Source: Candidatus Stercoripulliclostridium sp. (GTDB lineage: Bacteria; Bacillota; Clostridia; Christensenellales; DTU072). Taken from it: 44,531 nt of DNA. This document shows, piece by piece, positions 25,752 through 32,809 of the stretch (within the stretch, counting starts at the first letter, position 1; every line of letters starts with the position of its first letter). The position numbers and the translations under genes are program-made. The notes under the pieces were generated by a model. The model searched no databases. It saw only the letters and a program-made list of their open reading frames with translations, and was not told where the DNA came from. Where the stretch lies: the NCBI GenBank assembly GCA_045594145.1, contig JAZNYA010000069.1:1-44531 (forward strand), written 5' to 3'.

Positions 25752-27317
25752 TTAACCTTCCGTAATTTCTATATTTTCTGTTTTTTGTGCGGGAACTTTG
25801 CCGTAAAGTTCTTTGATGAGTGCTTCACGTTCTACTTTTTCTTCTTCGGTTATATCGGCAAGCTTGCCGTCACGATTAAGGTCGATGTAGTAACGCATAC
25901 GGGTAAGCTTTTGGTTATTAACCTTGAACTTGAAGGATGCGAACAAGGAGATTGCTATTAGAGCAGCGATTGCGATACCCATTAGTAGACGGATGGTGAG
26001 AAGAACGTTGTCGCCTTGAACGACGTATTCAGTAGCATTATCTTGTGAGATATAGCCAACGCCGGTTAGAACCCAACCGATGATACCTACGCCAAGAGCA
26101 CCGGAAACCTTTCTCGTTAAGGTCATCATGCCGGAATAGGAGCCGGTGGGACGTTTACCGGTTGCGAATTCTGCAACGTCAACGGTATCGGGGAAGATAA
26201 TCCAAGGCATCATTTGAGCACCACCAAATCCAAGGCCCATTAGGAAAGCGATGATGGGGATGATGATTGGGGGAGTCCAGCTGGGGTCCATAACTGCAAG
26301 GAGAATACCGCCTAGGATATAGAAGGGAAGACCAATGCGGAAAGCAAATTGCTTGGTTTTTTTGTCCATAGCGTATCTTACAATGGGGAAAGCGACTACG
26401 GCTGCAACCATTAAGGGAGCAACGATGAACATGCTGGAGAAATTCATGCCGAATAGTTGATATCCGTGCCAAACGTCAGTTGCATAGTATACTGCTAGAG
26501 CGGAGAGCATATCTGCACAGGTGAAAGCACTGGCGTACATGGTGATATGCCAAAGGAAAGACTTGTTTTTAAAGGGTATTGCATAGCCCTTGAAGAAGAC
26601 TTTAAGATTAAACTTTTCTTTGGGAGTGATGGGTTGGATTCTTTCTTTAACGCCGATAGCGGTAATTATTAGACCTACGCCGAAGAGAATACCGAATACT
26701 ACGGTTATAATAATCCAGAATTCCGTTGCGTTAATGGCGGGAAGGAAGGCTGCTTCGGGAGAAACGTAAGCTTCGAGTATTAGTAGGGGGATGACGTATG
26801 CAAGACCTGCACCTGCTGCACTAAATACGAGTTTTACGGTATTAGCGTCGTTTCTTGCTCTAAACGAAGGAGAAATATCGCTTGCGAGAGAGCAATAAGG
26901 AACTTGTGAAAGGGTTGAGAAAGTGTTCCATAGTAGGTACATAACGGTCATATAAGCAACCATGCCGGCAGGGTCCATGCCCCATTCTTTGATGGGAGCA
27001 AAAAGTAGGAACAAACCGAAGATTATGCTTATACCGCCAAAGAACATATAGGGTTTACGTCTACCATATTTTGAGCGGGTATTATCGGAAATAAATCCCA
27101 TTAGCGGGTCGCTTATTGCGTCCCAAATTTTAGCAACCATCATGATGGTAGAAGCGATAGCTGCTTCTATGCCGAGAGAAGTCATGTATTTGAGCATGAC
27201 GCAAGCCATAAGGGCGACACCGCCACCATCCATAAAAGCACCTACACCATAGGCTAACTGCTCTTTAAAAGGAATAGCATCGGGGTCAACTACCACGTTA
27301 GTGTTTTGTTTTGCCAT
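25752..27317 (-). CDS. Glycoside-pentoside-hexuronide (GPH):cation symporter family permease
   Basis: The ORF is 521 aa and polytopic. It has the GPH signature DAISDPLMGFISDNTRSKYGRRKPY and an AAGGAGA RBS. Confidence 0.85.
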   Translation of the reverse strand: MAKQNTNVVVDPDAIPFKEQLAYGVGAFMDGGGVALMACVMLKYMTSLGIEAAIASTIMMVAKIWDAISDPLMGFISDNTRSKYGRRKPYMFFGGISIIFGLFLLFAPIKEWGMDPAGMVAYMTVMYLLWNTFSTLSQVPYCSLASDISPSFRARNDANTVKLVFSAAGAGLAYVIPLLILEAYVSPEAAFLPAINATEFWIIITVVFGILFGVGLIITAIGVKERIQPITPKEKFNLKVFFKGYAIPFKNKSFLWHITMYASAFTCADMLSALAVYYATDVWHGYQLFGMNFSSMFIVAPLMVAAVVAFPIVRYAMDKKTKQFAFRIGLPFYILGGILLAVMDPSWTPPIIIPIIAFLMGLGFGGAQMMPWIIFPDTVDVAEFATGKRPTGSYSGMMTLTRKVSGALGVGIIGWVLTGVGYISQDNATEYVVQGDNVLLTIRLLMGIAIAALIAISLFASFKFKVNNQKLTRMRYYIDLNRDGKLADITEEEKVEREALIKELYGKVPAQKTENIEITEG

Positions 27318-27495: not shown

Positions 27496-28275
27496 CTATA
27501 TTTTTTCTGCACAGCAATGGGTGTGAGTGTTGCCAAGAGCACGGAATCCGTCCGCCCTGCCTTTTAGCTTTTTAACACCGAATCTTATGGAGCGAACGTG
27601 GTTATAAAGCATGATGAAATCGCCGTCGCCGTTTCCTTTTTCATTAAATGCCATTTGGGACGTGAAGAGCTTAAGGGCTTCCTTTTGTCTCTTTAAGTGC
27701 TTGGCACCCGTTTTAAAATAGGTGTTGGGGCTATCGGTATAGTAGAAGGCGAGAAGGGAAGGGGAAGCGGGGGTGGTATCGGCATATTCCTTTGCATAAG
27801 GAGCGTTGCCGGCAATAAGGTATGCACTGGCAGATGCTTTTCCTACGTTCAAGTGGTCTACGTGGCACTCCGTTAAAAGATTGGGGTCGGGAGCAAAAAC
27901 GGCTTCCGGTTTAATTTCTATAATCTTTTTTGCAATGGCTTGCATAAGCTCGGTTTGGTCGTATAGTCCGCAATCGCTAAAGGGAAGGAAATGTACGTCT
28001 TTTACGCCTAGATAGTTTGCTGCAGCAATGGCTTCTTCTTGGCGAGTTTTAATAAGGTCTTCCTTTACGTAATCGGCAGTAGGGGAACCATAACAGCCGT
28101 CTGTGGCTATCAAATACGTAACTTTCTTACCCATTTCTACAAGGCGAGAAACGGTGGCTCCGGCACCTACTTCTATGTCGTCGGGATGGGGACCAATGAA
28201 TAGATATTCTTTGAAAGCATCTATCTTTGGGATGGGAACAATAAACTTTTTAAGTATCCAAGTTATAAGTGACAT
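27496..28275 (-). CDS. PIG-L/LmbE-family N-acetylglucosaminyl deacetylase
   Basis: The ORF is 259 aa with GPHPDDIEVGAGATV and HVDH motifs and an AAGGAG RBS. Confidence 0.85.
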   Translation of the reverse strand: MSLITWILKKFIVPIPKIDAFKEYLFIGPHPDDIEVGAGATVSRLVEMGKKVTYLIATDGCYGSPTADYVKEDLIKTRQEEAIAAANYLGVKDVHFLPFSDCGLYDQTELMQAIAKKIIEIKPEAVFAPDPNLLTECHVDHLNVGKASASAYLIAGNAPYAKEYADTTPASPSLLAFYYTDSPNTYFKTGAKHLKRQKEALKLFTSQMAFNEKGNGDGDFIMLYNHVRSIRFGVKKLKGRADGFRALGNTHTHCCAEKI

Positions 28276-28291
28276 AGTTATCTCCTTGATT

Positions 28292-28317
28292 AAAAAGAAA
28301 GGGAGCAGTTTGCTCCC
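28292..28317 (-). terminator. Rho-independent terminator after the lipoprotein gene
   Basis: The minus strand reads GGGAGCA-AAC-TGCTCCC followed by TTTCTTTTT. Confidence 0.8.
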
Positions 28318-28323
28318 TTAACG

Positions 28324-29175
28324 TTATTTGGGTTGGGGTACGGTGAACTTGGGGCCGGTATAAACTATTTCTAGTTTGTAGCTTTCATATTCGAGAGCAA
28401 GAATACCTTGGGTGTTGCTTTCCGATGCACCGGGGTCGTTTTGATAAACGATGATAGCGGCGATTCTGTCATAAGACATTTCGATGGTCATATATTTGCC
28501 TTCGAGTACGCTCTTGTGGCCGTTTGCGTTTTTGTAGGCTTCTGCGTATGCGTCGCTAACTTTGCAGGTGATGGTAACAACGTTACCTTTCTTTTCTACC
28601 TTGCCGTTTTGGAACTCATCGATGAGAAGGTCTTCTCTCTTGAGAGACTTTAGTTCCTTGAGCTTTTCTTCTAGGGTATATTCTTTGAACTTGTCGCTTA
28701 GTACGTAATCTTCGGCAACCATAGATTCAAAAGCATAAGCATCGGTGTTGGTAAGAAGGGTAGTGCCGTTTTTGTCGCCACGAGTAGCAAGATAGGAATT
28801 GCCGTTTTCTGCGTAACCGCAGTATTGCTCGTAAACGAGTTTGCCGTCGTAGGACTTGTTTACTCTTGCCTTAAGGTCTTCATAATCGTATTCGCCTGCA
28901 CCTTCTTTTACGAAGTTGTAGTCACGGTCGATGGCACAAAGAACGTTTACGGTGGTGGTTTCTACTAGGTTGGTGATGCCTTCACGTGGAGTAGAAACGT
29001 TCTCTTTCCAATAGAAAATATGAGCATTGTTATCATGCAAAGTATTTTCTATTGCTTTTTGCATTAGCTCGTAACCTTCGTCACCGCTGAGTGATTGACA
29101 ACCGCTCAAAAGGCAAGTGCAAAGCATTACTGCAAGTAGGGATAGGCAAAGAATCAATTTAATATACTTTCTCAT
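28324..29175 (-). CDS. Lipoprotein of unknown function
   Basis: The ORF is 283 aa. The signal peptide carries the lipobox LLSGC. The start overlaps the stop of the upstream permease by 1 nt (TAATG). Confidence 0.8.
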   Translation of the reverse strand: MRKYIKLILCLSLLAVMLCTCLLSGCQSLSGDEGYELMQKAIENTLHDNNAHIFYWKENVSTPREGITNLVETTTVNVLCAIDRDYNFVKEGAGEYDYEDLKARVNKSYDGKLVYEQYCGYAENGNSYLATRGDKNGTTLLTNTDAYAFESMVAEDYVLSDKFKEYTLEEKLKELKSLKREDLLIDEFQNGKVEKKGNVVTITCKVSDAYAEAYKNANGHKSVLEGKYMTIEMSYDRIAAIIVYQNDPGASESNTQGILALEYESYKLEIVYTGPKFTVPQPK

Positions 29176-31571
29176 TATTCGTTTTCTCCTTCGTCTACGG
29201 TGGATGCGACTTCTTCTACTACCGGAGCTTCAGTTTTTTGGGCTTTAGCTTGTTTCTTTTCTTCTGCTTTTTGTCTACGAGCAAGAATTCTAGCTTGTTT
29301 TTCGGGAGAGAAGGACTCGAAGCGAGCTTGTTTTGCTTCTATGAGTTCTTGTTTTCTACGTTCACGCTCTTCTTCTTCCTTGCGAGTTAGCTCTTCGTCT
29401 TTACGCTTGATTTCGGCAAGAGCTTCTTCATACATTGCTTCGATTTCCGAATAGTAACGTCTGTTTTCGGATTCGGCTAGAAGTTCGAGCTTGATATTGT
29501 AGTAGTTGAATACTTGGTTGAACTTAATGAGAGCTTTTTCTGCAACGTCGATAGCCTTATCACGAGCCTTGATGGCATCTTTATCTTTGATGTCTTCAAC
29601 CACGATAGCGTGAGCTTGTTCGACTTTTTCATATAGGTTTTCGGGGATATTGTCGCCATAAACCTTTTTAATTTCTGCTATCATCTTGTTATAACGCTTA
29701 ATTTCCTTGTTGTATAGAGCGTTAAGTTTCTTATCTTCGGGAGCGGCAATGTGGAAATCTTCAAATGAAATCTTGCAGATTTCATAAGGAGTATACTCCT
29801 TAATTGCTTTTGCGATTTCGAGTAGAAGAGCGTTCTTGGGAACTTCGAACTTGTTTTCTTCCTTAAGATAGATTTCTCTGTATGCTTCTTTGTTTTCCTT
29901 TAGGCGTTTTGCAGCTTGGTGAGCCTTGGTTGCAGCCTTGATGGCGTCCTTTCTATAAGCTTTTTCTTCGGGAGTGCCGGCTCTTATTGCGAAGGCGTTC
30001 TTTATAGCTTCACGAGAAGCCTTAAGGTCGGGCTCTTCTGCGTTGATGATTTCCATAATCTTTTTATGGCTTTCTACCGTTTCTACTATTTGCTCGGGAG
30101 TTATATTACCGCTAGCATAGTCGGCAAATGCAGCTCTTCTTCTTAGGATTTGGACTATCATCGTGTGCTTTTCACGGCTTAGGCGATAGAAGAAGAAGGG
30201 GACTAGGTTGAGTATGGAGCCTACTATGGATAGTATGCAGAGCATATTGAACATATCGTTACGAACTTGCGGGTCGTAAAGAATGTCGTAATTGGAAGTG
30301 ATGCCCATCGATTCATAAACGAAGGGGATTACCAGACCGGTTAGAAGGGTGATGGGGGTGGTGATGGTTGCTGCTGCACCAAGGATGAAGTCAACACGCT
30401 TGCCGGTAAGGAATTGTTGGTAGTCTTTAACTTCTGCGTTCAAAACGGGGTCATAAACGAGTTGTAGTTGGTTGAATACTGCGTTTATGTACATGCAGAT
30501 GAAGAACAAGAAGGGATTCTTGTAGGAGAGTACCATTAGGGAGATGAAGAAGATGTTGCTTACGTTGTGGAAGAGTAGGATACCACGGTTTCCGAGCTTA
30601 CGCAGTAGCATGGGGGTGATGACCATTGCGATAGTGGAAGCCGTACCATAAATGGTGGTAAGAAGGCTGTATTGAACCATGTCTTGCGTGCCATAAATAT
30701 ACATCCAGCCGAATATGACGCTAAATGAGCTTTCCAGGAAGCCGATGATGGTAGCGATGTTCTTAATCCACCAATATTTATTTTTATAAACGCCTACCAT
30801 ACCTTCTATTAGGCCGACCTTTTGGGTGTAGGATTTGGAAGTTATAACACGTTCCTTACATCCGAAAGCGGTAAGCAAGTTAAGGCCTACGCCGGCGATT
30901 GCGAAAGATGCGATAACGTAGCGATAGGTTGCTATATTCGTATAAGTAAGACCCGTCCAATTCAAAATCAATGGGGTGATGAAGTTGTAGATGGTGGGTG
31001 CAAAAGATGCGATAAGAATACTTATGGTAAGAAGTCTTGCACGTTCGTTAGAGTTTGGCGTAATAACGCTACCTAGTTCCGTGTATGAATCGGTAAACAT
31101 GGGTTGGAACATAGCTAGTGCCGTCGAGAAGAAGAACGTACAAATGAGCTTGTCGTTATAGGTCATGCGGTCGAAAGGCAAGAAAAGGAATGCGAGTGCA
31201 ACCGCAACGAGCGGGAAGCCCATGAAGGCAATATACGGACGGAATTTACCCATGCGGGTTCTGGTATTATCAACGATTTTACCACGGAACATGGCGAAGA
31301 ATATGCCGAGAATGGTTTGAATAATTGCCATGTATTGAAGGTGTAGTGGGCGAATACCGATGGTGGAACCAAGCAAAGTATTGCTTGCAGAAAGAGCCAT
31401 GTAGGTGAGAAGATAGATAACCATGTTTCTTCCCATACCGCCGACTGCGTAGTTGATGAGTTCTTTATATGGAACGTGATTTCCCTTTGCGGGACGATTC
31501 CAATGTAGAACGATTTCATCATAAACGCCGATTACTTTAGTTTTGATTGTTTCAATAAATTGCATAGGCAA
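29175..31571 (-). CDS. GPH/MFS-type permease fused to a roughly 330-aa Lys/Glu-rich helical (coiled-coil-like) cytoplasmic C-terminal extension
   Basis: The ORF is 798 aa. The N-terminal roughly 470 aa is polytopic and carries the GPH-like motif KIVDNTRTRMGKFRPY. From about nt 30175 down to 29178 the sequence is hydrophilic and charged (for example ...EEERERRKQELIEAKQARFESF...KAEEKKQAKAQK). A GGAGA RBS is present. Confidence 0.8.
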   Translation of the reverse strand: MPMQFIETIKTKVIGVYDEIVLHWNRPAKGNHVPYKELINYAVGGMGRNMVIYLLTYMALSASNTLLGSTIGIRPLHLQYMAIIQTILGIFFAMFRGKIVDNTRTRMGKFRPYIAFMGFPLVAVALAFLFLPFDRMTYNDKLICTFFFSTALAMFQPMFTDSYTELGSVITPNSNERARLLTISILIASFAPTIYNFITPLILNWTGLTYTNIATYRYVIASFAIAGVGLNLLTAFGCKERVITSKSYTQKVGLIEGMVGVYKNKYWWIKNIATIIGFLESSFSVIFGWMYIYGTQDMVQYSLLTTIYGTASTIAMVITPMLLRKLGNRGILLFHNVSNIFFISLMVLSYKNPFLFFICMYINAVFNQLQLVYDPVLNAEVKDYQQFLTGKRVDFILGAAATITTPITLLTGLVIPFVYESMGITSNYDILYDPQVRNDMFNMLCILSIVGSILNLVPFFFYRLSREKHTMIVQILRRRAAFADYASGNITPEQIVETVESHKKIMEIINAEEPDLKASREAIKNAFAIRAGTPEEKAYRKDAIKAATKAHQAAKRLKENKEAYREIYLKEENKFEVPKNALLLEIAKAIKEYTPYEICKISFEDFHIAAPEDKKLNALYNKEIKRYNKMIAEIKKVYGDNIPENLYEKVEQAHAIVVEDIKDKDAIKARDKAIDVAEKALIKFNQVFNYYNIKLELLAESENRRYYSEIEAMYEEALAEIKRKDEELTRKEEEERERRKQELIEAKQARFESFSPEKQARILARRQKAEEKKQAKAQKTEAPVVEEVASTVDEGENE

Positions 31572-31595
31572 ACATCTCCAATTATACTATTTGAT

Positions 31596-31624
31596 AGTAT
31601 AACACAGAAAAACGACAAAAGCAA
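31596..31624 (-). promoter_or_regulatory. Sigma-A-type promoter for the permease-lipoprotein unit
   Basis: The minus strand reads TTGCTT (31619-31624), a 17-nt spacer, then TGtTATACT (-10 at 31596-31601). Confidence 0.5.
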
Positions 31625-31660
31625 TAGCTTTTTTATATACGCCTACGCACCTACGTACTT

Positions 31661-32809
31661 TTAATAGTAGGTTACCTTAGTTTCCACGTTTAAATTGGAT
31701 TTTTGCAAATAGCCGTCGCTTTGTTCCACCCACTTTTTTCCCAGGCGACCATAAAATCCGCCGTAAAGGTCGAATACGTCCACTCCGTGCTTTTGACACT
31801 CTTTGAAAGCATACGAAATTACGCCGTTAAAATAATCTTTTAGCAGTGAGTCTACTCTTTCGGAAGGCTCTACGTCAACTACGGAAAAGTCGGTTGGCGA
31901 AGAAGCGGAAACGACTTCTTTTAGTATTATGTCCACGTTAAGCTTAACCTTTGCCGTAAGTGATTCGGGCGAAAAGTCCAGCTTGCTTTTGCTTTTAATT
32001 ATATAAAATGAATAGGTTAAATCTCCATCGGTAATTACGACGTCGCCTTTATCCAGCTTTGCGGTAACAAGGTTGATTCCGCTTATTAATTCTTCGTTGC
32101 CATCAAAGACGTAGTGGTCGCCTTTTATGATGGCACACCTAGCAAAATCTAAGACGTATACCTTGTCTTCGCCACCGCTTCCGGAAGAAGAACCGGCACT
32201 CGTCGAGCCCCCGGTTTGCGGTTTTTCGGTTTCTACTTTTTTAATTTTGGTTAACCAATTGGCAGAGTTTTCGGTGTAATAAGAAGATAAGTATTCTTTT
32301 ATGTTTCTATGCACCGCTTCCTTATAGTTTCCGTAAACCATAAGTTCTCTTTGGATATAAAAAGAAGTCATATCGGAGTATGCGGTCTTTGCGTTAAGGA
32401 CGTCTTTTGCCGTGCCTTCCGTGGTGAGCAGTAGGGCGTTTTCGGAAAGGTAGGCGTTTCTTATCATATAGTCGAGAGCAGAATATGCCTTGCCACGCAG
32501 AGTGCCTTCTCCAAGAAGCACAAGATTGCAATGGCTCATTGCTACAAGCATACTGCTTTCGGAACTAATTTTGGCAAGTGCTTCGCCCAGCGTTTTTCCT
32601 TCTGCGGAAGAAACGACGATGTTACTTGTTTTGCTGTCGTCGGAAGAAGGCAAAAGAATTTGGGCCGATACCGTGAAAACGCCGTTATCGTAATCTATGC
32701 CAAGTCCTGCAACTATAGCTCTTTCGGAAAGCGGAGTTATTTCTACGCCAAGGGCAAACATGAGAAAAAAGCAAATTAAAAATGCTATCCATTTATATTG
32801 TCGCTTCAC
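31661..32809 (-). CDS. Ger(x)C-family spore germination protein
   Basis: The ORF is 382 aa with ERAIVAGLGIDY near the N-terminus. It is third in an A-B-C gene order and overlaps the B gene by 17 nt. Confidence 0.8.
   Translation of the reverse strand: MKRQYKWIAFLICFFLMFALGVEITPLSERAIVAGLGIDYDNGVFTVSAQILLPSSDDSKTSNIVVSSAEGKTLGEALAKISSESSMLVAMSHCNLVLLGEGTLRGKAYSALDYMIRNAYLSENALLLTTEGTAKDVLNAKTAYSDMTSFYIQRELMVYGNYKEAVHRNIKEYLSSYYTENSANWLTKIKKVETEKPQTGGSTSAGSSSGSGGEDKVYVLDFARCAIIKGDHYVFDGNEELISGINLVTAKLDKGDVVITDGDLTYSFYIIKSKSKLDFSPESLTAKVKLNVDIILKEVVSASSPTDFSVVDVEPSERVDSLLKDYFNGVISYAFKECQKHGVDVFDLYGGFYGRLGKKWVEQSDGYLQKSNLNVETKVTYY

What the first reader, a model, noticed from the sequence alone, without database searches (positions are those of the whole stretch)
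28324..31571. GPH-type secondary permease with a 330-aa coiled-coil tail, translationally coupled to an extracytoplasmic lipoprotein
The 798-aa protein has a GPH-like polytopic core of about 470 aa, including the DNTRTRMGKFRPY loop. It continues in frame into about 330 residues of Lys/Glu/Ala-rich, heptad-like helical sequence with no hydrophobic segments (nt 29178-30175). Typical GPH permeases end shortly after the last TM helix. The paralogue at 25752-27317 has only about 55 extra residues.

Its stop codon overlaps the ATG of a 283-aa lipoprotein (lipobox LLSGC). The two genes share a promoter (31596-31624) and a terminator (28292-28317).

Outside the TRAP and TTT families, secondary transporters that work with an extracellular binding lipoprotein are rare. 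A long cytoplasmic coiled coil suggests scaffolding or signalling rather than transport alone. This two-gene unit may be an undescribed transporter-associated module. That is inference.
Basis: partly seen in the sequence, partly recalled or inferred. Interest (0 to 1): 0.6.

Follow-up and report, generated by a model that had tools for sequence, protein, structure and literature searches.

The report
Long-tailed sugar-type permease with obligate lipoprotein partner
A membrane transporter of the melibiose-permease type carries a previously undescribed 260-residue helical domain inside the cell and is always encoded with a surface-tethered lipoprotein of unknown family. This two-gene unit is limited to a few lineages of gut Clostridia, and what it transports is still unknown.

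Summary
A 796/798-aa MFS_2 (GPH-type) permease at 29175-31571(-) overlaps by TAATG a 283-aa lipoprotein at 28324-29175(-), followed by a strong terminator.

The long ORF is not an artefact:
- Contigs from four independent metagenomes cover it without indels.
- 74 species-level genomes encode 705-957-aa orthologues.

The tail is not a classical coiled coil:
- It has a conserved domain of about 260 aa made of roughly ten helices (AF2 pLDDT 80-92). This domain has no Pfam or PDB relative and occurs only behind MFS_2 cores.
- A variable ER/K-rich extension follows.

The lipoprotein is strictly co-conserved. It lies directly downstream in 68 of 68 loci complete at the permease 3' end, and 44 of those junctions overlap. 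It has no Pfam family and is not SBP-like. Its confident model (pLDDT 85.6) resembles LolA/LprF only weakly.

The permease lacks MelB's cation-site Asp pair. Its outer loops are as conserved as its TM helices. No other neighbour is conserved.

My reading is a self-contained two-protein transport unit. The nearest analogue in logic is mycobacterial LprG-Rv1410, but it is not a member of that family. Substrate and direction are unknown.

I rate it a new variant of a known kind, of moderate interest.

The parts
29175..31565 (-). Permease gene. The likely ATG start is at 31565; the listed TTG is at 31571. The stop is TAA at 29175-29177. The product is 796/798 aa.
   Evidence: Orthologues of 705-957 aa occur in 74 species.
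31470..31565 (-). N-terminal cytoplasmic helix (residues 3-34) with the conserved HW..P..G motif (W24 and P27 at >=95%).
   Evidence: AF2 helix 3-22; conservation.
30174..31469 (-). 12-TM MFS_2 / MelB-fold core (residues 35-466). It includes the loop 2-3 signature DNTRTRMGKFRP and the conserved outer loops 1-2, 3-4, 7-8 and 11-12.
   Evidence: Pfam PF13347 E 2.8e-29. Foldseek hits MelB at TMt 0.75-0.78 and MFSD2A at 0.66-0.73. Loop conservation.
29391..30173 (-). Conserved family-specific cytoplasmic helical domain (residues 467-727), made of about ten helices.
   Evidence: AF2 pLDDT 80-92. The profile finds only 124 cluster representatives in 1.84e9 proteins. Every full-length hit is 700-900 aa with the domain at about 465-730, and 10 of 10 tested have an MFS_2 N-terminus. 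No Pfam or PDB hit.
29178..29390 (-). Variable ER/K-rich helical extension with an acidic, disordered end (residues 728-798). It is absent from the 705-760-aa orthologues. The clade shares a ...GGNE C-terminus.
   Evidence: Mean top-residue frequency 0.10. E+R+K make up 54% of residues 728-779. pLDDT is below 50 for 779-798. Alignment.
29173..29177 (-). TAATG stop/start overlap between the permease and lipoprotein genes.
   Evidence: The junction overlaps in 44 of 68 orthologous loci and is at most 37 nt in all.
28324..29175 (-). Lipoprotein gene, 283 aa, of an unannotated family.
   Evidence: AF2 pLDDT 85.6, pTM 0.80. No Pfam or NCBIfam family.
29098..29175 (-). Signal peptide and lipobox (L-S-G-C, Cys26).
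   Evidence: G25 and C26 are invariant in the close family. A lipobox is present in 63 of 68 orthologues; the other 5 have an uncleaved TM anchor instead.
28292..28319 (-). Intrinsic terminator after the lipoprotein gene.
   Evidence: Nine-pair stem with 5 G-C pairs, followed by TCTTTTT.
31596..31624 (-). Putative promoter TTGCTT-17 nt-TATACT with TGn. It is weak.
   Evidence: Sequence read. It did not reach the threshold of the consensus scan.

Best explanation
The two genes encode one self-contained membrane transport unit.

Proposed mechanism:
- A MelB/MFSD2A-fold MFS_2 permease does the translocation.
- Its substrate is passed to or from a partner protein tethered to the outer face of the membrane. 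The tether is a lipid anchor in most species and a TM anchor in a few. The partner meets the permease at its unusually conserved extracytoplasmic loops, notably 1-2 and 11-12.
- The conserved 260-aa helical domain sits in the cytoplasm, together with the N-terminal helix. It acts on the permease itself, by gating, regulation or oligomerisation, and not on the lipoprotein.
- The committed specific reading is that the cargo is an amphipathic, membrane-associated molecule (a lipid, glycolipid or lipid-linked glycan). It is extracted or flipped by the permease and handed to the lipoprotein. This is the logic of mycobacterial LprG-Rv1410, built from unrelated parts.
- Coupling does not use MelB's Na+/H+ site.

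Shown:
- gene structure;
- the fold of the core;
- the exclusive fusion of the tail domain to MFS_2 cores;
- strict synteny and co-inheritance of the partner;
- loss of the Asp pair.

Inferred: physical contact, the nature of the cargo, the direction of transport and the role of the tail.

I put about 0.85 on 'a functional two-protein transport unit' and about 0.35-0.4 on the lipid or amphiphile hand-off version.
For: Reality of the ORF:
- Contigs from four independent metagenomes cover 28200-31700 with substitutions only, no indels and no joints.
- There are 494 homologues, full-length down to 48% identity.

Linkage:
- A lipoprotein homologue lies directly downstream on the same strand in 68 of 68 loci where the 3' end and downstream DNA are present. 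The 6 loci without it are cut by contig ends.
- 44 of 68 junctions overlap.
- In a 201-genome sample of the order, 10 genomes have the tail and all 10 have the lipoprotein beside it.
- Pairwise distances of the core, tail and lipoprotein correlate at r 0.91-0.94.
- No other neighbour is conserved. That is atypical of sugar-catabolic loci.

Tethering:
- Five orthologues replace the lipobox with a TM anchor. Tethering to the outer face therefore seems to matter more than lipidation itself.

Core:
- Foldseek places MelB and the lysolipid transporter MFSD2A as the best hits.
- MelB D55, N58 and D59 align to G89, F92 and A93.
- Outer loops 1-2, 7-8 and 11-12 have a mean conservation of 0.75-0.76, against 0.56-0.70 for the TM helices.

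Lipoprotein fold:
- The model is confident.
- The only PDB hits with Foldseek probability of about 0.9 are LprF and LolA.

Analogue:
- LprG-Rv1410 is a two-gene MFS-plus-lipoprotein operon. Its outer TM11-12 region guides lipid into the lipoprotein (10.1101/2023.01.25.525346).
Against: - The LolA/LprF likeness is weak: E 7e-3, TM 0.25-0.40, and no hit at E<=1e-3.
- The profile comparison with DUF6612 matched only the signal peptide.
- Most characterised GPH members import soluble glycosides.
- In the window's own genus a PIG-L deacetylase and a second GPH permease follow the unit. A sister paralogue pairs with an LRR_5 surface protein. Both facts fit nutrient capture as well as they fit lipid hand-off.
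- No complex model, no ligand and no expression data were obtained. No RNA run was listed.
- Tail-bearing outgroup permeases lack the lipoprotein.
Confidence: 0.4

Rival explanations
1. Nutrient uptake. The permease imports a soluble glycoside or another small nutrient. The tethered lipoprotein captures or concentrates it at the outer face, acting as an SBP-like accessory for a secondary transporter. The tail regulates uptake, much as the IIA domain does in LacS.
For: - The core belongs to MFS_2/GPH.
- In the window's genus a PIG-L (GlcNAc-type) deacetylase and a MelB-like GPH follow the unit.
- A sister MFS_2 paralogue in the same genome is coupled to an LRR_5 surface lipoprotein.
- The hosts are gut glycan fermenters.
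- The conserved residues of the lipoprotein are rich in Tyr, Glu and Lys.
Against: - The lipoprotein has no SBP fold and no SBP family hit.
- MelB's cation-site Asp pair is missing, and the sugar-site D19 position is not conserved.
- No glycoside hydrolase, kinase or regulator is conserved beside the pair across 68 loci.
- No SBP-dependent MFS importer is known to me.
Confidence: 0.3
2. Ancillary subunit. The lipoprotein does not touch the substrate. It is an obligate chaperone or stabilising 'beta subunit' needed for folding, localisation or activity of the permease, as basigin and embigin are for MCT-type MFS transporters.
For: - Strict synteny, overlapping junctions that imply co-expression, and co-inheritance.
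- A TM anchor can replace the lipid anchor.
- Conserved outer loops could form a protein-protein interface.
Against: - Related tail-bearing permeases do without the lipoprotein.
- The sister paralogue uses a completely different partner fold. That is easier to explain by different ligands than by a generic chaperone role.
- There is no direct evidence either way.
Confidence: 0.15
3. Artefact or coincidence. Either the long ORF is a fusion produced by an assembly or frameshift error, or the two genes are merely neighbours with no functional link.
For: The genome is a fragmented MAG: 206 contigs, 75% complete.
Against: - No indels or joints in four independent assemblies.
- The tail is conserved, with invariant residues, in 74 species.
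- The lipoprotein is downstream in 68 of 68 complete loci.
Confidence: 0.02

Closest known systems
MelB / GPH:cation symporters (TC 2.A.2; Pfam MFS_2)
   Same: A 12-TM MFS fold. MelB is the best structural match (TMt 0.75-0.78). MFS_2 scores above its cut-off. The loop 2-3 signature D-x-T-R-x-x-x-G-K-F-R-P is present.
   Different: - The protein is 705-957 aa. Bacterial glycoside MFS transporters are usually about 400-550 aa (PMC13543919).
- The score is below the TIGR00792 cut-off.
- phmmer and profile searches find no PDB relative.
- MelB D55/N58/D59 are replaced by G/F/A.
- It has a 260-aa cytoplasmic domain and an obligate lipoprotein partner.
LprG-Rv1410 (mycobacterial MFS transporter plus lipoprotein, triacylglyceride/LAM export)
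   Same: A conserved two-gene operon of an MFS transporter and a lipid-anchored extracytoplasmic protein. A functional role is proposed for the outer TM11-12 region. The lipoprotein model's best-probability PDB hits are LprF and LolA.
   Different: - Rv1410 is an MFS_1 drug-efflux-type protein, not MFS_2.
- The gene order is reversed.
- The lipoprotein here has no sequence match to LppX_LprAFG, and the TM-score is only 0.32-0.40.
- The host is a monoderm Clostridia lineage with no mycomembrane.
- Rv1410 has no cytoplasmic tail domain.
MFSD2A (Na+-dependent lysolipid symporter, the eukaryotic branch of MFS_2)
   Same: It is the second-best structural match (TMt 0.66-0.73), and it shows that this fold can carry amphipathic lipids.
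   Different: MFSD2A retains the MelB-type acidic cation site (established knowledge); this family does not. It has no lipoprotein partner and no helical tail.
LacS-type GPH permeases with a C-terminal IIA(Glc) domain
   Same: A GPH core extended by a cytoplasmic C-terminal regulatory domain. LacS is the known exception to the usual length (PMC13543919).
   Different: The tail here is all-helical. It has no PTS IIA or any other Pfam match, and it is about twice as long.
TRAP/TTT SBP-dependent secondary transporters
   Same: A secondary transporter encoded with an extracytoplasmic protein, which is lipid-anchored in monoderms.
   Different: The membrane component is unrelated. The partner has no Venus-flytrap SBP fold and no SBP family hit.

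Membership tests
Pfam MFS_2 / GPH superfamily | Match to PF13347 above the gathering threshold over the whole 12-TM core. | tested here: met
   102.4 bits against 27; residues 41-466 cover profile positions 2-427. Ten of 10 tail-bearing relatives also match.
GPH:cation symporter subfamily (TIGR00792) | Score above the curated NCBIfam cut-off. | tested here: not met
   110.7 bits against a cut-off of 231.35.
GPH:cation symporter (MelB-type mechanism) | The helix-II acidic pair that forms the cation site (MelB D55 and D59, with N58). | tested here: not met
   MelB is aligned to paralogue P0003, and P0003 to the family profile. This gives D55->G89, N58->F92 and D59->A93. G89 is nearly invariant.
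GPH:cation symporter | MelB-like 12-TM fold. | tested here: met
   Foldseek to MelB: E 1e-9, TMt 0.75-0.78, about 460 aligned columns. The model's core pLDDT is only 50-84.
LacS-type GPH with IIA domain | A C-terminal PTS EIIA(Glc) domain. | tested here: not met
   No Pfam hit in residues 470-798 at E<=1. The tail is all-helical.
   Seven prolines between 492 and 643. Only one 28-residue window has >=7 of 8 hydrophobic a/d positions. AF2 gives 13 helices of 4-40 residues. No dedicated coiled-coil predictor was available.
SBP-dependent secondary transporters (TRAP/TTT) | A partner with an SBP (two-lobe alpha/beta) fold and a DctP/TctC-type family match. | tested here: not met
   The model has an N-terminal helix, 11 beta strands and inserted helices. 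No SBP appears among the Foldseek hits. No Pfam family.
LppX_LprAFG / LolA-like lipoproteins | Sequence membership in the Pfam families. | tested here: not met
   No such family at E<=10 for any of 19 members. The PDB profile search is empty.
LppX_LprAFG / LolA-like lipoproteins | An open beta half-barrel with helices enclosing a hydrophobic cavity. | tested here: inconclusive
   LprF 4qa8: probability 0.92, TMt 0.40. LolA 8chx and 2w7q: probability 0.9, TM 0.24-0.34. All have E>=7e-3. The cavity could not be inspected because no coordinates were available.
Pfam DUF6612 (lead from the ESM Atlas) | Match to PF20316, or profile-profile homology. | tested here: not met
   PF20316 finds nothing in G000, G419 or G452. 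hhalign of A6 against five DUF6612 proteins aligns only the signal peptide. The Atlas score was 0.94 with 165 shared features.
LprG-Rv1410-type MFS-lipoprotein unit | A conserved two-gene operon of an MFS transporter and a lipoprotein. | tested here: met
   68 of 68 loci; overlapping junctions.
LprG-Rv1410-type MFS-lipoprotein unit | Lipid cargo and hand-off to the lipoprotein. | not testable with these tools
   This needs binding, lipidomic or transport experiments.

The most novel reading that the evidence does not exclude
Monoderm gut Clostridia have a proton-motive-force-driven lipid or glycolipid extraction system that is independent of ABC transporters. A MelB-fold MFS_2 permease hands a membrane amphiphile to a tethered carrier protein of a new fold family. 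A new cytoplasmic helical domain controls it. This would be a convergent counterpart of mycobacterial LprG-Rv1410 in bacteria without an outer membrane.
Probability: 0.25. Interest if true: 0.75.

Novelty: new variant of a known kind. Interest (0 to 1): 0.55.

Why it matters
GPH/MFS_2 permeases are treated as stand-alone cation-sugar symporters of about 450-550 aa. This clade breaks that picture in four ways:
- it has a fixed extracytoplasmic partner protein;
- it has a large cytoplasmic domain found nowhere else;
- it has lost the canonical cation site;
- it has no conserved catabolic gene neighbours.

If the pair works as one unit, it would be only the second type of MFS-plus-lipoprotein system after LprG-Rv1410, and the first in Firmicutes.

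It also defines two unannotated protein families, the tail domain and the lipoprotein. Both are currently labelled 'MFS transporter' or 'hypothetical protein' in abundant, uncultured gut Christensenellales and Oscillospiraceae of livestock and poultry.

Tried and rejected
- **Frameshift or assembly fusion:** rejected.
- **Classical coiled coil:** rejected.
- **SBP-type binding protein:** rejected.
- **DUF6612 membership**, a lead from the ESM Atlas: not supported.
- **PDB sequence searches:** searches with the permease profile, the core alone, the tail profile and the lipoprotein profile gave nothing useful.
- **ESM Atlas on the tail alone:** no usable features.
- **Third large protein search, with a diverse lipoprotein profile:** it returned only family members, all unnamed and without Pfam domains.
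- **Class-level genome sample:** only the window's own genome of 399 was positive, so the order-level sample and a pattern scan of all species genomes were used instead.
- **Conserved enzymes or regulators near the pair:** none found. PIG-L is present in only 12 closely related loci.
- **Link to the upstream gerA operon:** present only in the closest relatives.
- **RNA evidence:** no RNA run was listed.
- **Literature:** no paper was found on a GPH permease with a lipoprotein partner, or on a LolA-like protein paired with an MFS transporter in Gram-positives.
- **Partial correlation of tail and lipoprotein distances** given the core (0.64): noted but not used. Both evolve fast and the sequences are related, so it is not evidence of contact.
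Full report
**1. What is in the sequence**

The minus strand carries a 798-aa ORF at 29175..31571 and a 283-aa ORF at 28324..29175.
- The junction reads GAA-TAATG-AGA, so the stop and the start share one base.
- Directly after the lipoprotein stop lies a nine-pair G+C-rich hairpin followed by TCTTTTT, at 28319..28299.
- Upstream, TTGCTT-17 nt-TATACT (31624-31596) with a TGn is a plausible but weak promoter. It matches 8 of 12 consensus positions and was not picked up by the consensus scan. No terminator separates the unit from the gerAA-AB-AC operon upstream (Pfam GerAC).
- The real start is very probably the ATG at 31565. Orthologues begin MQ(I/L)IEK, and GGAG lies 10 nt upstream of that ATG but only 4 nt from the TTG.

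**2. The ORF is real**

- Contigs from four independent gut or faecal metagenome runs, each from a different study, cover 28200-31700. They differ only by substitutions. No inserted or missing letters and no joints were reported, and several contigs bridge the core-tail boundary near 30150-30200.
- A protein search found 494 homologues. Full-length relatives of 792-809 aa extend down to about 60% identity, and a large group of 735-aa proteins sits at 48-49%.
- A pattern scan of one genome per prokaryotic species returned 74 loci. The organisms are Ca. Stercoripulliclostridium (the closest, at 90-96% identity, so probably the window's genus), Christensenellaceae, Ca. Fimivicinus, and Oscillospiraceae/Ruminococcaceae, plus MAGs labelled 'Eubacterium sp.' or 'Clostridiales'. 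The sample names point to goat, sheep, roe deer, chicken and similar guts.
- Orthologue lengths are 705-957 aa. None has the ordinary GPH length.
- The window's genome is a 1.67-Mb MAG of 206 contigs, 75% complete.

**3. The permease core**

- Residues 41-466 match Pfam MFS_2 end to end (E 2.8e-29). TIGR00792 'gph' also matches, but well below its cut-off.
- Sequence searches of the PDB find nothing, even at E 10, so the core is divergent.
- The AF2 model (pLDDT 73.5, pTM 0.61) has MelB as its best structural match (TMt 0.75-0.78), followed by the lysolipid transporter MFSD2A (0.66-0.73). All hits cover only about 460 columns.
- I bridged through the MelB-like paralogue P0003. MelB's cation-site residues D55, N58 and D59 correspond to G89, F92 and A93. 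The loop 2-3 signature DNTRTRMGKFRP is retained.
- I reduced 68 orthologues to 33 sequences at under 80% identity. In these, the extracytoplasmic loops 1-2, 7-8 and 11-12 have a mean top-residue frequency of 0.75-0.76, and loop 3-4 has 0.70. The TM helices have 0.56-0.70. The topology is inferred from the MFS fold and the model's helices.

**4. The tail**

- No TM-like segment follows residue 465. With 12 TM helices, the tail lies in the cytoplasm; this follows from established MFS topology.
- It is not a classical coiled coil. Seven prolines interrupt residues 492-643. A simple heptad count finds one clean 28-residue stretch. AF2 predicts 13 helices between 466 and 779, with pLDDT 80-92 over about 470-730.
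- Conservation splits the tail in two. Residues 462-727 are moderately conserved (0.39-0.51), with residues such as Y462, H469, R479, K574 and Y714 at >=95%. Residues 728-798 are not conserved (0.10).
- The second part is 54% E+R+K, ends in a disordered acidic stretch, and is missing from the 705-760-aa orthologues.
- A profile of the conserved part was searched against 1.84 billion cluster representatives. It found only 124 proteins at E<=1e-3. Every full-length hit is 700-900 aa with the match at about 465-730. Ten of ten tested carry MFS_2 in front.
- The domain has no Pfam, NCBIfam or PDB sequence relative. It is therefore a family-specific domain that occurs only fused behind this kind of permease.

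**5. The lipoprotein**

- The lipobox L-x-G-C is invariant in the close family and present in 63 of 68 orthologues. The other five, all in one clade, have an uncleaved N-terminal TM helix with no cysteine. What is conserved is therefore tethering to the outer face.
- No Pfam or NCBIfam family matches any of 19 members, even at E 10. A diverse profile retrieves only unnamed family members from 5.8 billion proteins.
- The AF2 model is confident (pLDDT 85.6, pTM 0.80). It has an N-terminal helix, 11 beta strands, a block of short helices at 154-177 and a helix at 208-218.
- Foldseek against the PDB gives no hit at E<=1e-3. The only hits with high probability are LprF (0.92, TMt 0.40), LolA (about 0.9, TM 0.24-0.34) and two staphylococcal lipoproteins (TM 0.35-0.42). 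This is a lead, not a classification.
- The ESM Atlas pointed to DUF6612. The Pfam model finds nothing in genomes that carry the module, and a profile-profile comparison aligns only the signal peptide.
- The fold is not that of a substrate-binding protein.

**6. Linkage of the two genes**

- In all 68 of the 74 species loci where the permease 3' end and downstream DNA are on the contig, a lipoprotein homologue lies directly downstream on the same strand. The remaining six loci are cut by contig ends.
- The junction overlaps by 1, 4, 8 or 11 nt in 44 of 68 loci and is never longer than 37 nt.
- In a 201-genome sample of the order, the tail profile hits 10 genomes in three families. All 10 have the lipoprotein beside it. 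G478 was recovered with my own HMM.
- A 399-genome sample of the class was positive only for the window's own genome.
- Pairwise distances of the core, tail and lipoprotein correlate at r 0.91-0.94. The tail and the lipoprotein diverge faster (mean p-distance 0.66) than the core (0.41). This shows co-inheritance without partner swapping. It is not evidence of contact.
- No other gene is conserved around the pair. The PIG-L deacetylase and the second GPH permease downstream occur only in about 12 closely related loci.
- More distant permeases with a weaker but recognisable tail (P0250, P0243, P0237) have no lipoprotein downstream. The tail is therefore older than, or independent of, the partnership.

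**7. Interpretation**

The strict synteny, the overlapping junctions, the conserved tethering and the conserved outer loops make it very likely (about 0.85) that the two proteins work as one transport unit.

For the mechanism I commit, at about 0.35-0.4, to hand-off of an amphipathic, membrane-associated cargo between the permease cavity and the tethered protein. The grounds are:
- the unit is self-contained, with no catabolic or regulatory neighbour;
- the core fold is shared with a lipid transporter;
- the MelB cation and sugar-site acids are absent;
- the partner's only structural echoes are lipid-carrying lipoproteins;
- the known precedent, LprG-Rv1410, is a two-gene MFS-lipoprotein operon in which the outer TM11-12 region guides lipid into the lipoprotein (10.1101/2023.01.25.525346).

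The main rival, at about 0.3, is uptake of a soluble nutrient with the lipoprotein as a capture device. It draws on the family's usual function, on the genus-specific PIG-L/GPH neighbours, and on a sister paralogue coupled to an LRR_5 surface lipoprotein.

A pure chaperone or 'beta-subunit' role is possible, at about 0.15.

The tail most likely regulates or organises the permease from the cytoplasmic side. This is inference only.

**8. Comparison with known systems, and novelty**

A 2026 review states that bacterial glycoside MFS transporters are generally 400-550 aa, with LacS-type permeases as the exception (PMC13543919). This tail is neither an IIA domain nor any other known domain.

The protein belongs to the MFS_2 superfamily but fails the curated GPH subfamily cut-off and lacks the cation-site pair. 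The pair works like, but is not a member of, the LprG-Rv1410 kind. I found no paper describing such a module.

I rate it a new variant of a known kind: two unannotated families in a fixed architecture, narrow in taxonomy but widespread in animal gut metagenomes. Substrate, direction and the role of the tail remain open.

Noticed in passing
G000 contig C51 = L006:465-3156 (minus strand): A 592-aa MFS_2 paralogue shares 27% identity and the N-terminal HWNRP..G motif with the permease, and has only a short acidic tail. It overlaps by 14 nt a downstream 308-aa lipoprotein (lipobox LAGC) that is a BspA-type LRR_5 protein. 'MFS_2 permease plus coupled surface lipoprotein' may therefore be a wider theme in this lineage, with interchangeable partner folds.
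   Followed up: partly
L081, L086, L087, L088, L090 (genes downstream of the permease): In one clade of 'Clostridiales' MAGs the lipoprotein orthologue has lost the lipobox cysteine. It carries an uncleaved N-terminal TM helix and is 343-380 aa long.
   Followed up: partly
window 29178-29200 (C-terminus of the permease) and alignment A2: The extreme C-terminus ...(E/Q)GGNE is conserved in the 790-810-aa clade (11 of 68 orthologues end in GGNE; others end in GGND, GENE or GDNE). The roughly 40 residues before it vary freely. It looks like a short linear motif at the end of a flexible charged linker.
   Followed up: no
L103:204-5773 and L024:4001-6814: An outgroup clade has tail-bearing MFS_2 permeases of 810-857 aa, two of them in tandem in L103. 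They have no lipoprotein. They are followed by a conserved 71-aa protein, a class-V aminotransferase and cdaA.
   Followed up: partly
window 27496-28275 (minus strand): The RBS and ATG of a PIG-L family deacetylase (Pfam E 2e-28) begin about 15 nt after the terminator of the lipoprotein gene. No promoter-like site was found in between, so its expression may depend on terminator read-through. It accompanies the module in only about 12 closely related loci.
   Followed up: partly
window 31572-31660: The gap of about 90 nt between gerAC and the permease gene has no terminator-like hairpin. It contains a near-repeat, GTAGGTGCGTAGGCGTA. Read-through from the germinant-receptor operon into the permease gene is possible in this genus.
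   Followed up: no
window 28308-28310: In three of the four metagenome runs laid on the window, the terminator loop differs at three adjacent bases (GTT to AAC) while the stem is unchanged. This is strain variation that preserves the hairpin.
   Followed up: no
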